From Octopus sinensis (taxonomy: Eukaryota): a stretch of 8,019 nucleotides of DNA. Within the stretch, counting starts at the first letter, position 1, and every line of letters begins with the position of its first letter. The notes beneath the pieces are model-generated. The model ran no database searches, had not been told where the DNA came from, and saw only the letters and a program-made list of their open reading frames with translations. The stretch lies in assembly GCF_006345805.1 (NCBI RefSeq), contig NW_021828695.1, positions 1-8,019 on the forward strand. The letters are read 5' to 3'. Below, in pieces: positions 747 to 7,825 of this stretch. A program made the position numbers and the translations under genes.

Positions 747-811
747 TACTTTACTTTTTTTACTTTTTACTTGTTTCAGTCATGTGACTGTGGCCATGCT
801 GGAGCACCGCC
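747..811 (-). mobile_element. Isolated retroelement 3' tail (same family as the LINE tail) with (AAAGT)n-like end
   Basis: Reverse complement GGCGGTGCTCCAGCATGGCCACAGTCACATGACTGAAAC followed by A-rich AAGT repeats; aligns with 2577-2613 (-) and 7012-7050 (+). Confidence 0.8.
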
Positions 812-856
812 TTTAATTATATTATATTATATTATATTATATAATGTATATATAAA

Positions 857-965
857 GGGTTGGCTGTGTGGTAAGAAGGTTCCTTGCCAACCAATGTCTT
901 CTATTATAACCTCGGGATAGGATTTGAGGTTTCGGTAGACAAAAACTGAAAGAAGCCCACCATGT
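857..965 (+). mobile_element. tRNA-type SINE 5' part lacking a B-box, copy 1 of a tandem pair
   Basis: A-box-like TGGCTGTGTGG at 861-871; head matches 7926-7962; no GTTC B-box; ends in (TA)n. Confidence 0.7.
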
Positions 966-1042
966 ATATATAGATATATATATATATACATGGTGGGTTT
1001 TAATTTATTATATTATATTATATTATATAATGTATATAAAAA

Positions 1043-1151
1043 GGGTGGCTGTGTGGTAAGAAGGTTCCTTGCCAACCACATGTCTTCTATTATAACCTCG
1101 GGATAGGATTTGAGGTTTCGGTAGACAGAAACTGAGCGAAGCCCACCATGT
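1043..1151 (+). mobile_element. tRNA-type SINE 5' part lacking a B-box, copy 2 of a tandem pair
   Basis: Near-identical to 857-965 (period ~185 bp), including the upstream (TATAT)n flank; A-box-like motif at 1046-1056. Confidence 0.7.
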
Positions 1152-1379
1152 ATATATATATATATATATATATATACTATATATATATATATAGTATATA
1201 TATATAATTATTATATATAGAGGGCATTATTACACATAAATGCCACACGCTATATATATATAATATATATATGAAGTGATGAGAGAGAGATAGAATCTTA
1301 CGGACATAATGTTTGTATACCTCTGGCGTTGTGTGTCTATGTATGTGTGTGAGTGTGTGTGTATATACATACATACATA

Positions 1380-2437: not shown

Positions 2438-2632
2438 GGAGGGGAGATACGTTGAATGCACTCGAAAAAACTATTTCAGACTGACTTTATCTACCGTATT
2501 TTTAAATCATTTTCACTAGAATATTTTTTAAATATGACACAAAAAAAAATTGTGTTGGAATTCACATTTTTGTTTTAGTTTCAGCTCAGAGCTGTGGCCA
2601 TACTGAGGCACCGTTATTTTACTACACTGTTA

Positions 2633-4055
2633 TTATTGAGAGCCTCCTCTAATATGTGGCACTTGGTGAAGAAAAGAGTTTAATGTCGCTTCCCTCGTTT
2701 GCACCTCTTGCCGCGAAGTAGGTTCATCTGTGACTCCCGACCAGAAGAAGTCCAGTTTTGATTTGAAAACACCTACATCTACTTTGTGTAGGTCCTTCAG
2801 ACTCTTTGGGAGAATATTAAAAAGTTGTGGGCCCCTAAAATCCAGGCTGTTGTAGTAACTGGTCCTGGAGCGCGCACTGTGCAGTGACGATCCGTCCTGG
2901 TATTTGTGTAGCTTTCAATGCCAAAATTTGGCACAATTCCTTCTAGGATCTGCCAGATGTATATTACTGCATACTTCTCCCGCCTTTGCTCCAGGGAGTA
3001 GAGTCTTAACTCTTTCAGCCTTTTCCAGTTGCTGAGACGTTGCAATGAGACGATCTTCTTTGTCAAGCTTCGCTGGATTGCTTCAAGGTCCACTGTTAAT
3101 TTTATACTGTTGGGTGACCATAGCTGGGAGCAGTAAACGAATGTCCTCCAGAGGACCATCATGGGTTCCTTCTCTCTGGTACTGAACGTTCTCAGTATCA
3201 AGCCAGCCAGTCGTCTGCACTTTGTTGCCATCCTGGTAGTGTGCACTTGGAAAGAGGTATCATCACTCATGTCAATACCCAGGTCCTGTACTGATTTAGG
3301 GTCTGGGATTGTAATCCCCTGTGAGCCAGTGTACCCTGTAAGTTTTACGTTCAGTTTTGGACGCTGGTAGCGCAGAGCTTGGAATTTTTCAGCATTAAAC
3401 TGCATATTATTGTCCTCAGCCCATCTGTAAAGTGAGCCCAACTCCTGCTGCAGATGTACAACATCGCTGGGGTTCTGTATTTTCTGCGAGGCTTTATTAT
3501 CGTCTGCGTAACCAGTAAGGGTGGCTATCCGGGCAGCTGAGAGCATATCTGAGAGGGTCACCTGTGCTTGTTTGCAGTGAGCTATTCCTGAGAGCATGGG
3601 GCCTTCTGGCCATTTGATATTGAGGAAGTTGAAATCACCCATAAGAAATACGCTCACGTTGTGTTCCAGTTACATGAGGATTTCTTTAATTCTTGTGAGG
3701 CAATCTTCAAACTTGCCTATGTGGTTTGGAGCATCTGGTGAGCGATATGTATTGCATATTACTATATTGTATTGTCTTATGTATACAATTAGAATGTCAA
3801 ATACTGAATTTGAGTATGACAATAAGACCTAGGGTGTGAGGTCTTCACGGATGTATACAGCAATCACGGCTCCTTTCCCTTCCGTCTGTTCGCAGTATGG
3901 TATATTTTGGTATGTGTACTTCTGCATCCTCTATATCAGGGCTTAGATGAGTTTCTACGAGTGTTATGCATAGGGCTTGATTGTATGCAGCAAGATCTCT
4001 CAGGAAAAAAACTTGCTTTCGTTGTTGTGATGAAACAGGGCCCCCAATATTTAGT
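2633..4055 (-). pseudogene. LINE ORF2 remnant (endonuclease-reverse transcriptase) with stops, frameshifts and internal deletion
   Basis: Hand translation: FLRDLAAYNQALCITLVETHLSPDIEDAEVHIPKYTILRTD / VYIREDLTP*...YRSPD...M*LEHNVSVFLMGDFN. Continues as the 286-aa ORF 3657-2797, then after a frameshift NSLDFRGPQLFNILPKSLKDL...FKSKLD...VTDEP...GGSQ* (stop 2635-2633). Confidence 0.88.
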
Positions 4056-5786: not shown

Positions 5787-6877
5787 TACAAACAATACAT
5801 CTTAACTTAAATTTTCATCCGATATTATCAATGATAAAACAAAATAAACAAAATAAATAGGATACTTATTCTCAAGCGGTAAAATTCCAATCCTTGTTCT
5901 TGTACGAAGAAGTTTTATTTCAAAGAAAAAATCGATTACTCTTGGCACACGGCTGCTAATGAAAGTACGATTTATCACCACGTACTTTCTTCGAAGATAA
6001 CTCTGGCTTGCGTCATTTTTTTTTTTTACCAAAATATTATAGTAAATCATTATGAAATAACAAGTACTGGGTTGTTTTTTTTTTATTGAGTTTCAGTAGA
6101 TTTTTTGTCGATTTAGGGAATCCCTTTTGGTTTTTTCCGAAGCACGAAAAGCACGTCTTTCCATAACGAAACCGGAAGTATATACTTGAAAATAATTTTA
6201 AAAAACATTAAAATATTGTCTGTTTAAAGAAAGCTAAACTATAAATACTTACTGTACAAACAGCTTACAGTTTTGAAATCACATTCACTTAAAAATATTT
6301 CTAAATGATTAAAATATTGTATTTAATAAAAGCGAAAATAGAAACTGTAAAAAAAAATCGCTTTTTTTTTCCTTCTTTTCGTTGTCAAATCACTGTCTAA
6401 TAAAAAGTTATGAGTTTCTTTCCTTTCAGGATGAAGATTATTTTCGGAACATTTTCCCATTATGCACCGTTTTGGATATTTATATCCTGAAAATCTCTAA
6501 TATCTTGAAAATAACTTTACCGATTTACGCGAAACTTGTTTCATTCGAGAAGTTTTAACATTTCAGGGTAAACTTAATTCATGGTATTTTCCCATTATGT
6601 GCCAGTTTCGCTGAGTAACATTACAAGCAAGCAAGAAAGATTGAAACTGACTTTTAATGTATTATGAATATGTATATATAATTTATATTTTTATGGAACA
6701 TAACTGTTATGTTCGGTCTATTATTTTTTAACTTCTTGTCCGTTTGAATAGAAAAGTTACACCAAATCTTACATTTCTCCGACTACAGTACGCTTTCGAC
6801 TCGATGATTGTATCACGTGTTTCCAGCTTCAAATCCCCATTTCTGACACAGTTTCCAGTGTAAAACTTTTACAACCA

Positions 6878-6996
6878 TATTACGGCCATATCACGTTGAA
6901 AGCACCCGTTCTCGTCTGATCACCGAAGTTAAGCAACGTCGAGCCTAGTCGGTACTTAGATGGGTGACCGCTTGGGAAACCTAGGTGCAGTAAGCA
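6878..6996 (+). rRNA. 5S rRNA: 5S rRNA-derived sequence (retroposed copy, probably not a functional rRNA gene)
   Basis: TTACGGCCATATCACGTTGAAAGCACCCGTTCTCGTCTGATCACCGAAGTTAAGCAACGTCGAGCC...GATGGGTGACCGCTTGGGAAACCTAGGTGCAGTAAGCA is typical metazoan 5S. The first two bases (GC, expected from helix I pairing with the 3' GTAAGC) are replaced, helix I has a mismatch, and there is no oligo-T terminator. Confidence 0.93.
6927..6975 (+). promoter_or_regulatory. Pol III type 1 internal control region (box A to box C)
   Basis: Box A AGTTAAGCAACGTCG at 6927-6941 (5S +50 to +64); box C AGATGGGTGACCGCTTGG at 6958-6975, with A where G is usual at +81. Confidence 0.75.
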
Positions 6997-7825
6997 TAGC
7001 ACATTGTTAATGGCGGTGCCCCAGCATGGCCACAGCTCATGAGCTGAAACTAGAATCAATCAATCGATCAATCAAAACCTGGTCGTGCTTTCATTTCTTA
7101 TACCTTTCCCGTGCCAACTTGAAGCATTATGTCACAATGTGTGCCACTGTCTTGTTCCAAGTTCCACAGGCTCTACATTTTTCTGACACCTTCTTTCCAT
7201 ATATATTTTCCCTCAAGCTGTTTGTTTGTTTTGTTTTTTGTTGCTTGATCTTGGGCTGCTACAATTAGGCACACTGTTTCTTTTTTTAACTCTATAACAA
7301 CAGTTTTTTTTTAATCAACACAATTAGGTTGCGTTGATGTTAATTATCTCGCTTGAGATAAGCAATTAACGCACGACAATGGTTGGGTGTATATTTACAA
7401 CAACCGTTTTAACCAGTTTACGGCGATGATTCATTCGGTTGCCTGGCGCCATGGGCTCTTAGGAGCATAGTTCGATTTGTTTTTGCTCCGCCTCTGTTCT
7501 GTTTTTGTTTTTTCCAAGGATTTCCTTTTTTTTCCTGAAGAGAAAGACACAATATGGTCTCATTATTCAATCGGATTTTGGTAATTTGTGCCTTTCGAAA
7601 CACGTGTAGAATGAAATAAAACGATTTCTGTTCAATCTGCGTTCAGCTCCATTTCTTCAATTCACCAATAATGTTTTAATTTCAATTATCCGCACCAACG
7701 CACGGTTGCAACGCCAGATGGTTGTACCTCCAACCGTGCTGTTACTGCTGTGATTTTTGCTACTAAGGTATCGGTTAAACTTTTGATTAATCTACTACAA
7801 GATTATTCATCTTTCTATTTCACAT

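What the first reader, a model, noticed from the sequence alone, without database searches (positions are those of the whole stretch)
6877..7075. Minimal 5S rRNA-derived SINE candidate carrying the 3' tail of the CR1-like LINE found in the same window
Seen: a near full-length 5S sequence runs without an oligo-T terminator through a ~15-nt linker into CGGTGCCCCAGCATGGCCACAGCTCATGAGCTGAAACTA (7014-7052). This matches the LINE 3' UTR at 2613-2576 (CGGTGCCTCAGTATGGCCACAGCTC-TGAGCTGAAACTA) at 36/39 columns and ends in (ATCA)n. Known: zebrafish SINE3 has a 5S head (Pol III type 1 promoter) and a CR1-like tail, and SINEs borrow LINE 3' ends to be mobilised. Inference: this is a ~200-bp 5S SINE with no central domain, mobilised by that LINE family. 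I do not know of such a family described in cephalopods but cannot check. The alternative is a one-off template-switch chimera.
Basis: partly seen in the sequence, partly recalled or inferred. Interest (0 to 1): 0.9.

Follow-up and report, generated by a model that had tools for sequence, protein, structure and literature searches.

The report
Recurrent 5S RNA–LINE tail chimeras
This is most likely not a self-copying 5S SINE family, but one of many separately made DNA copies in which a retrotransposon joined an unprocessed small cellular RNA (5S rRNA here; U6, 7SL or tRNA elsewhere in the genome) to a short, fixed piece of its own 3' end, the step by which new SINEs are thought to arise.

Summary
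In detail: a full 5S (6878-6996) is joined to a LINE 3' tail, and 6877-7075 sits between 4-bp AACC repeats, as one insertion. The SINE-family reading is not supported. The 'linker' is the 3' trailer of a 5S gene found on contig C5 (11 of 12 bases match). Among 39 5S-tail copies there are 34 different linkers. The 42 exact copies of this 5S variant join nine different partners (15 this tail). U6, 7SL and pre-tRNA heads join the same tail at the same place. Tails far outnumber headed copies (3,517 exact tails; about 1% estimated to carry 5S). The donor is a younger LINE family (48/48 match), not the window's LINE (41/47). Best reading: repeated, independent capture of U-tailed Pol III precursor RNAs by reverse-transcriptase template jumping, of the U6/L1 chimera kind. 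What looks new: full-length sense 5S precursors with gene-specific trailers, and a near-fixed junction 2-3 nt before the tail's first hairpin (46 of 50 headed copies versus 22 of 70 unselected tails). RNA ligation remains a rival. No RNA evidence was obtained; Repbase and Dfam could not be searched.

The parts
6873..6876 (+). Left copy of a 4-bp target-site duplication (AACC)
   Evidence: Contigs of the host repeat join 6872 to 7076, skipping 203 bases; sequence shown
6877..6879 (+). Three bases at the 5' junction that differ from the source gene's first bases; inferred untemplated or junction-derived
   Evidence: Window versus C5 gene printed side by side
6880..6996 (+). DNA copy of a 5S rRNA variant; 4 differences from the C5:50.22 Mb gene (L102), two of them shared by most retrocopies
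   Evidence: Rfam; alignment to gene
6997..7008 (+).
   Evidence: 11 of 12 bases match the trailer of gene L102; the same trailer precedes eight other partner classes
7009..7053 (+). 3' terminal piece of a young LINE family ('LINE-B'), with two hairpins (7011-7032 and 7033-7046); junction at the genome-wide hot spot
   Evidence: 48/48 match to LINE copy L087; fold; structure kept with compensatory changes across sister tails; breakpoint counts
7054..7075 (+). (AATC)n 3' microsatellite of the LINE-B subfamily
   Evidence: TRF; same ending on LINE-B copies
7076..7079 (+). Right copy of the target-site duplication (AACC)
2576..3669 (-). 3' part of a decayed related LINE (RT region and tail); a cousin family, not the tail donor
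   Evidence: About 69% DNA identity to LINE-B, 61% protein identity, tail 41/47

Best explanation
The element is an independently formed chimeric retrocopy. A LINE reverse transcriptase bound a short RNA made of its own two-hairpin 3' end plus microsatellite and primed at a nick in the target (inferred from standard target-primed reverse transcription). It copied about 65 nt, reached that RNA's 5' end or a strong stop 2-3 nt before hairpin 1, and jumped onto the free 3' end of an unprocessed 5S transcript that still carried its gene-specific trailer. It copied the 5S to its 5' end, and the joined cDNA was inserted with a 4-bp duplication. The same event happened many times, with 5S precursors from several genes, U6, 7SL and pre-tRNA as the captured RNA, and with several LINE tails or the 5' ends of full-length tRNA-like SINEs as the first template. 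Shown: single insertion, trailer origin of the linker, free mixing of heads and partners, fixed junction, excess of headless tails. Inferred: template jumping rather than RNA ligation, and the nature of the short first template. About 0.9 for independent chimeras; about 0.75 for the jump route given that.
For: (1) Genuine 5S genes found: 36 5S ends in clusters on C4 and C5, 33 with a shared upstream word, 36 with four Ts within 22 nt; 0 of 91 dispersed copies carry that word. (2) The C5 gene L102 has the window copy's diagnostic bases and trailer; a neighbouring gene's distinct end and trailer reappear exactly in chimera L029. (3) First 100 of 195 exact 5S ends: 9 genes, 79 followed directly by one of 10 partner classes (this tail 22), 12 unassigned. 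(4) All 42 exact copies of this variant: 1 gene, 15 this tail, 21 in eight other classes, 5 unassigned. (5) U6: 30 of 37 dispersed copies carry the same kinds of partner, 5 this tail; partner spectrum not detectably different from 5S (permutation p 0.35 and 0.26). 7SL: of 25 scored, 10 gene-like and 15 dispersed, all 15 with a partner by eye, 6 this tail. Two pre-tRNA heads. (6) 3,517 exact tails; of the first 70, 47 stop within 22 nt of the core, 21 run more than 60 nt into the LINE, 3 have a Pol III head, none 5S. An excess of headless LINE ends is the criterion Kojima 2015 gives for independent switches. (7) The four copies with the window's linker have four different tail subfamilies. (8) Junction at 15-16 nt before the core in 36/39 5S, 5/5 U6, 5/6 7SL versus 22/70 unselected tails (Fisher p 1e-11); 0 of 63 5S ends with a LINE-B-like match reach into the LINE body versus 21/70 (p 3e-7). 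(9) Joins to SINE 5' ends disfavour RtcB, which a 5' triphosphate blocks (Moldovan 2019); that these SINE RNAs start with a triphosphate is inferred.
Against: No gene with the exact trailer was found (L102 differs at 1 of 12), and no gene for the TCACAC/TCTCAC trailer classes (22 of 91 copies). Only 35 of 91 linkers match a found gene over 8 nt or more. Four copies share the window's linker and one of them (L013) also shares a rare base, so slight secondary copying is not excluded; that base also occurs with two other partners (4 of 137 copies). Duplications were not shown across the set: the flank signal in 33 chimeras vanished without microsatellite flanks (19 copies, p 0.54). The joining contigs differ from the window by many letters and are probably paralogues of the host repeat, not the empty allele. 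The permutation tests have low power: this variant carries the tail in 15 of 41 against 5 of 37 for U6. Samples are the first-listed places, not random draws. Partner classes rest on short motifs; one tail call (L159) is doubtful and L098/L099 are a local duplicate. A few heads join internal SINE or other LINE positions (L236, L304, L033, L111), so run-off from an RNA end is not the only route.
Confidence: 0.7

Rival explanations
1. Independent chimeras, but joined as RNA: a discrete ~65-nt tail RNA cut from LINE or SINE transcripts is ligated to the 3' end of Pol III transcripts, and the tagged RNA is then retrotransposed, as shown for human U6/L1 with RtcB.
For: The near-fixed junction (46 of 50) is what a discrete cleavage product would give; many bare tails start at the same place (29 of 70 at 14-16). 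Precedent in Moldovan 2019.
Against: RtcB needs a 2',3'-cyclic phosphate and a 5'-OH. Heads end at many trailer lengths (34 linkers in 39), include 5S, 7SL and pre-tRNA, and often join full-length SINE starts. Some junctions hold extra purine-rich bases (L310, L222).
Confidence: 0.17
2. One reading: a minimal 5S-derived SINE (SINE3-like) spreading from one or a few master copies, alone or as a subset of the chimeras.
For: Dispersed copies at 89-96% identity; intact 5S internal sequence; the four-T terminator is missing from the linker in 31 of 39 copies, so read-through is possible; four copies share one linker.
Against: Linker variety, gene-specific trailers, nine partners for the same head, other heads on the same tail, four tail subfamilies among the four shared-linker copies, an estimated 43 exact copies only.
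Confidence: 0.07
3. Two separate insertions: a 5S processed pseudogene first, then a LINE tail or SINE landing in its T-rich end.
For: The genome is dense with these repeats, and T-rich ends could be preferred targets.
Against: 79 of 91 dispersed 5S ends have a same-strand partner directly behind them while the clustered genes do not; one duplication flanks the whole insert.
Confidence: 0.04

Closest known systems
U6/LINE-1 chimeric retropseudogenes of mammals, and U6/L2, U6/Mon-1, U6/RTE, U6/AnolisSINE2 chimeras of platypus and lizard (Doucet 2015, PMC4476161, passages; Moldovan 2019, PMC6789731, passages)
   Same: Small-RNA copy in sense orientation fused 5' of a LINE 3' end or a SINE, inserted as one unit; short duplications with stringent LINEs; U-tailed Pol III RNAs favoured.
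   Different: Here 5S precursors, 7SL and pre-tRNA are captured as well as U6; the partner is a CR1-like family (Doucet found one unresolved U6/CR1 case and the words '5S rRNA' and 'invertebrate' do not occur in that text); the LINE-side junction is almost fixed.
Human 5S/LINE-1 chimeras (bioRxiv 10.1101/2025.02.02.635956, passages)
   Same: 5S sequence co-inserted with a LINE 3' end; 7SL and tRNA chimeras also reported there.
   Different: Human 5S pieces are often antisense and truncated at positions 46 and 90; here they are sense, mostly 5'-complete (96 of 133 fetched copies that reach the 3' end, genes included, start within 6 nt) and keep the precursor trailer.
WEIRD/MGL/Mg-SINE chimeras of Magnaporthe grisea (Gogvadze 2007, PMC2104539, abstract only)
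   Same: Recurrent chimeras with switching at specific sites in the first template; so a fixed junction has a precedent.
   Different: One captured RNA of unknown function in a fungus, against at least four classes of Pol III transcript here.
SINE3 (5S-headed SINEs; definition from SINEBase PMC3531059 and Kojima 2015 PMC4494074, passages; zebrafish details recalled)
   Same: Same module order: 5S head, LINE-derived tail, simple-repeat end.
   Different: SINE copies derive from SINE RNA of a genomic master; these derive from 5S gene transcripts each time. No shared body or junction.
Automated 'SINE/5S', 'SINE/U' and 'SINE/U-L1' labels in an Octopus vulgaris repeat library (Bonar 2026, PMC13282606; first third of the text, passages and whole supplement)
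   Same: Four 5S-labelled families (9.8 Mb), one U and one U-L1 family are tabulated, so 5S-headed repeats are already labelled in an octopus.
   Different: No sequence or description is given in what I read; whether they are these chimeras is untested. That the present genome is an octopus is my recall, not a tool result.

Membership tests
SINE3 / SINE family (SINEBase definition) | Short (<1 kb), interspersed, at least 60% identity to 5S over 60 nt | tested here: met
   199 bp; Rfam full-length; dispersed on many contigs
SINE3 / SINE family (SINEBase definition) | Common origin and same modules across copies | tested here: not met
   34 linkers in 39 copies; heads from several genes; nine partners for one head variant
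SINE3 / SINE family (SINEBase definition) | Copies made from SINE RNA of genomic copies, not from the functional cellular RNA | tested here: not met
   Linkers are trailers of functional-looking genes; no private mutation set confined to tail-bearing copies
SINE3 / SINE family (SINEBase definition) | At least 100 copies | tested here: inconclusive
   42 found among fetched loci; about 43 exact estimated; diverged copies not counted
SINE3 / SINE family (SINEBase definition) | Pol III transcription of the whole element | not testable with these tools
   Needs raw small-RNA reads or Pol III occupancy; only assembled contigs could be laid
Chimeric retropseudogenes (U6/L1 type) | Cellular RNA copy 5' of, and in the same direction as, a retrotransposon 3' part | tested here: met
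   79 of 91 dispersed 5S, 30 of 37 U6, 15 of 15 dispersed 7SL
Chimeric retropseudogenes (U6/L1 type) | One insertion event: a duplication flanks both parts | tested here: inconclusive
   Met for the window copy (4 bp, from probably paralogous contigs); not shown across the set (p 0.54 without microsatellite flanks)
Chimeric retropseudogenes (U6/L1 type) | Many headless copies of the same retrotransposon end | tested here: met
   3,517 exact tails; 67 of the first 70 without a recognised Pol III head (Rfam run on 20 of them)
Chimeric retropseudogenes (U6/L1 type) | Junctions differ between copies (independent origin) | tested here: met
   Head side varies; LINE side is nearly fixed, a departure from type
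CR1 clade LINE (tail donor) | ORF2 with an RT domain upstream of a short 3' UTR with stem-loops and a simple-repeat end | tested here: met
   RVT_1 E 2e-31; tail follows the ORF end; hairpins
CR1 clade LINE (tail donor) | RT phylogeny places it in CR1 rather than L2 or a related clade | not tested

The most novel reading that the evidence does not exclude
This genome's CR1-like LINEs and their SINEs give rise to a discrete, protein-protected ~65-nt 3'-end RNA with a defined 5' end, which is itself the main retrotransposing unit (two thirds of sampled tails) and acts as a general adaptor that captures nascent, U-tailed Pol III transcripts of every class. Hundreds of ready-made proto-SINEs result, most without a terminator, and they record the successive sequence states of single 5S genes; yet none has visibly amplified, pointing to a further barrier to SINE birth such as the lost upstream element.
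Probability: 0.3. Interest if true: 0.75.

Novelty: new variant of a known kind. Interest (0 to 1): 0.5.

Why it matters
Template switching has long been proposed as the way SINEs acquire LINE tails (stated in Doucet 2015), but the intermediates are rarely seen in numbers. Here 5S, U6, 7SL and pre-tRNA heads sit on the same LINE tail at the same junction, and many heads can be traced to particular genes by their trailers. That makes it possible to ask which RNA ends are captured, why capture happens at one point, and why promoter-bearing chimeras do not go on to amplify. In practice, such copies can be mislabelled as 5S SINE families or counted as 5S, U6 or 7SL genes. The claimed new SINE3 family itself does not stand.

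Tried and rejected
Expression: no RNA holder listed among 24 runs. One run guessed to be RNA has two contigs across a 5S-tail junction with 8-9 differences; it may be DNA and contigs cannot show transcription, so it is not used. General duplication test: signal only from microsatellite flanks. A first classifier lumped sister tails with this one (26 of 100); it was replaced by a stricter one (22 of 100). The upstream-word count used a wrong offset and was redone; one search stopped with an error before the breakpoint counts, redone. One of seven rows (L013) was mis-addressed and carries no information on hairpin 1. A DNA search with the flanks returned only head-tail hits, no empty site in the own genome. 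The source gene of the TCACAC trailer was not found: of 9 exact matches six were already known chimeras, two newly fetched were chimeras, one (L319) gave no 5S alignment. ARAGORN at a relaxed threshold gave five doubtful calls on 30 tail flanks, not used. Window LINE as donor: rejected. Tandem 5S rDNA with the tail downstream: rejected, clustered genes end in T runs without partners. Earlier findings of this scan: none returned.

Full report
Observation. The window holds a full-length 5S match at 6878-6996 (94.6 bits), 12 further bases, a 45-nt tail and (AATC)n to 7075. Contigs from three of four runs laid join 6872 to 7076 (two contigs each in X21 and X22, one in X1), which leaves AACC on both sides of 6877-7075. 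Those contigs differ from the window at many letters, so they are probably other copies of the older repeat in which the element landed; they still show the uninterrupted sequence. The element therefore most likely arrived as one unit.

Copies. The own genome has 2.72 Gb. All 40 scored hits covered head and tail, which at first looked like a SINE family. But the linker differed from copy to copy, so I sampled each module without regard to the other.

Heads. A 22-mer at the 5S 3' end has 195 exact matches; I fetched the first 100 listed. Nine are genes, 79 are followed directly by one of ten partner classes (this tail 22, one tRNA-like SINE start 25, others fewer), 12 are unassigned. The partner labels come from short motifs; calling several of them tRNA-derived SINEs is my recall. 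One sister tail follows the ORF end of a second LINE family and another ends an abundant repeat with a shared upstream body. All 42 exact copies of the window's 5S variant with its trailer start were fetched: one gene, 15 with this tail, 21 in eight other classes, five unassigned.

The linker is a gene trailer. Clusters on C4 (131.8-132.0 and 135.8 Mb) and C5 (50.2 Mb) gave 36 5S ends; 33 have a shared upstream word and all 36 have four Ts within 22 nt; none of 91 dispersed copies has the word. The C5 gene L102 carries the window copy's diagnostic bases and a trailer equal at 11 of 12 positions, followed by T runs. Its neighbour has a distinct end and trailer that reappear exactly in chimera L029. 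In all, 35 of 91 dispersed copies match a found trailer over 8 nt or more, against 0 of 364 controls. Against this: no gene was found for the TCACAC and TCTCAC classes (22 of 91), nor one with the window's exact trailer. That trailers mark unprocessed precursors follows from the Rfam end point and general knowledge of 5S processing; it was not measured.

Tails. A 30-mer of the tail has 3,517 exact matches. Of the first 70, 21 run more than 60 nt into a LINE, 47 stop within 22 nt of the core, and 29 stop at 14-16 nt. That LINE has an RT domain, is 61% identical in protein to the window's LINE, and matches the window tail at 48 of 48 against 41 of 47 for the window's LINE. Three of the 70 have heads: one U6 and two tRNA-like sequences with leader, trailer and T run (Rfam was run on 20 of the 70). 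None has 5S. About 43 exact 5S-tail copies are expected, some 1% of exact tails.

Other heads. U6 has 205 exact 3' ends. Leaving out the tandem array on C1 (28 listed places), I fetched the first 37 dispersed ones: 30 carry partners, five this tail. Partner spectra of 5S and U6 did not differ detectably (p 0.35 and 0.26, low power). Of 25 scored 7SL matches, ten are gene-like on C5 and 15 dispersed; by eye all 15 have a partner, six this tail.

Independence. Thirty-nine 5S-tail copies have 34 different linkers (taken from the 42 and overlapping loci, leaving out a local duplicate, a doubtful call and copies with junction indels). Four share the window's linker but end in four different tail subfamilies. 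One of them shares a rare base with the window copy, but so do two copies with other partners (4 of 137). Kojima 2015 (passages) argues that independent switches predict many headless retrotransposon ends; that holds here. SINEBase (passages) separates SINEs from copies of functional RNAs on the same ground.

The fixed junction. Headed copies join 15-16 nt before the tail core in 36 of 39 (5S), 5 of 5 (U6) and 5 of 6 (7SL), against 22 of 70 unselected tails (p 1e-11). Of 167 fetched 5S ends, 63 had a same-strand match to the last 1.7 kb of a LINE-B copy, all at the tail. The point lies 2-3 nt before hairpin 1. The two hairpins are kept across six informative sister tails, with compensatory changes at three of 13 pairs.

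Mechanism. Shown: one insertion, gene-trailer linker, mixing of heads and partners, fixed junction. Inferred: the RT primes on a short tail RNA, runs off its end or halts at hairpin 1, and jumps to a free U-rich 3' end. Jumping that needs untemplated addition is shown for R2 RT (Pimentel 2022, abstract); end-to-end jumping (Bibillo and Eickbush 2004) I saw only as a reference title. Untemplated A pairing with terminal U would explain the bias to precursors; this is a hypothesis. RNA ligation is the main rival, weakened by RtcB's end requirements (Moldovan 2019, passages). A few heads join internal positions of other repeats, so the rule is not absolute.

Known kinds. U6 chimeras with L1, L2, RTE and SINEs are described in vertebrates (Doucet 2015, passages); human 5S/L1 chimeras are often antisense and truncated; site-specific switching is described in a fungus (abstract). 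Ten searches of the open library listed no paper describing such chimeras in cephalopods, judged from titles and abstract starts; passages of PMC4758252, PMC10886601 and PMC8967140 gave none either. An automated Octopus vulgaris library does tabulate 5S-, U- and U-L1-labelled SINE families without description. Subscription papers, Repbase, Dfam and bioRxiv supplements were not visible and may bear on novelty. The octopus assignment of this genome and the CR1 label are recalled, not tested.

Verdict. Real, recurrent and well explained as chimeric retrocopies; not a SINE3 family. A new variant of a known kind, with interest 0.5, resting on the precursor capture, the breadth of heads and the fixed junction.

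Noticed in passing
window 2576-2613 and G000 genome-wide: Bare ~50-nt LINE tails with no LINE body are the majority class: 47 of the first 70 exact tails, 29 starting within a 3-nt window just before hairpin 1. Cause unexplained.
   Followed up: partly
L102/L212, G000:C5:50223076-50224060: Two convergent 5S genes about 0.9 kb apart, each with its own variant bases and trailer, each matched by dispersed chimeras. L007 shares one rare base and the trailer base of the present L102 gene and L010 the rare base only, so retrocopies may record successive states of one gene.
   Followed up: partly
L321-L325, L151, G000:C4:131.78-131.97 Mb and 135.79 Mb: Loose cluster of more than 30 5S genes with a conserved upstream AT-rich word about 30 nt before the start and varied trailers; one stretch is a ~495-bp tandem array.
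   Followed up: partly
L126-L150, G000:C1:141.83-141.96 Mb: Tandem U6 array with units of about 1.1 and 1.4 kb.
   Followed up: no
L291-L302, G000:C5:115-125 Mb: Cluster of about ten 7SL genes, most with a shared upstream sequence.
   Followed up: no
L285:257-327 and L290:428-498: Two copies of one tRNA-like sequence with 5' leader, 3' trailer and T run joined to the same tail, with different junction T counts and flanks.
   Followed up: partly
L310, L222, L163: Purine-rich stretches of 10-30 nt between head and partner that match neither side by eye.
   Followed up: no
L317: A 5S chimera with what looks by eye like a decayed U6 3' end directly upstream, a possible three-part chimera.
   Followed up: no
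window 758-817 (-): A sister tail of the same two-hairpin type, folding at z -3.6; the same tail ends an abundant repeat elsewhere.
   Followed up: partly
window about 6400-6872 and 7076-7300: The chimera interrupts an older multicopy repeat of unknown class (many contigs at 85-90% likeness).
   Followed up: no
window 812-1174: Local duplication with a 186-bp period that includes a degraded SINE-like piece.
   Followed up: no
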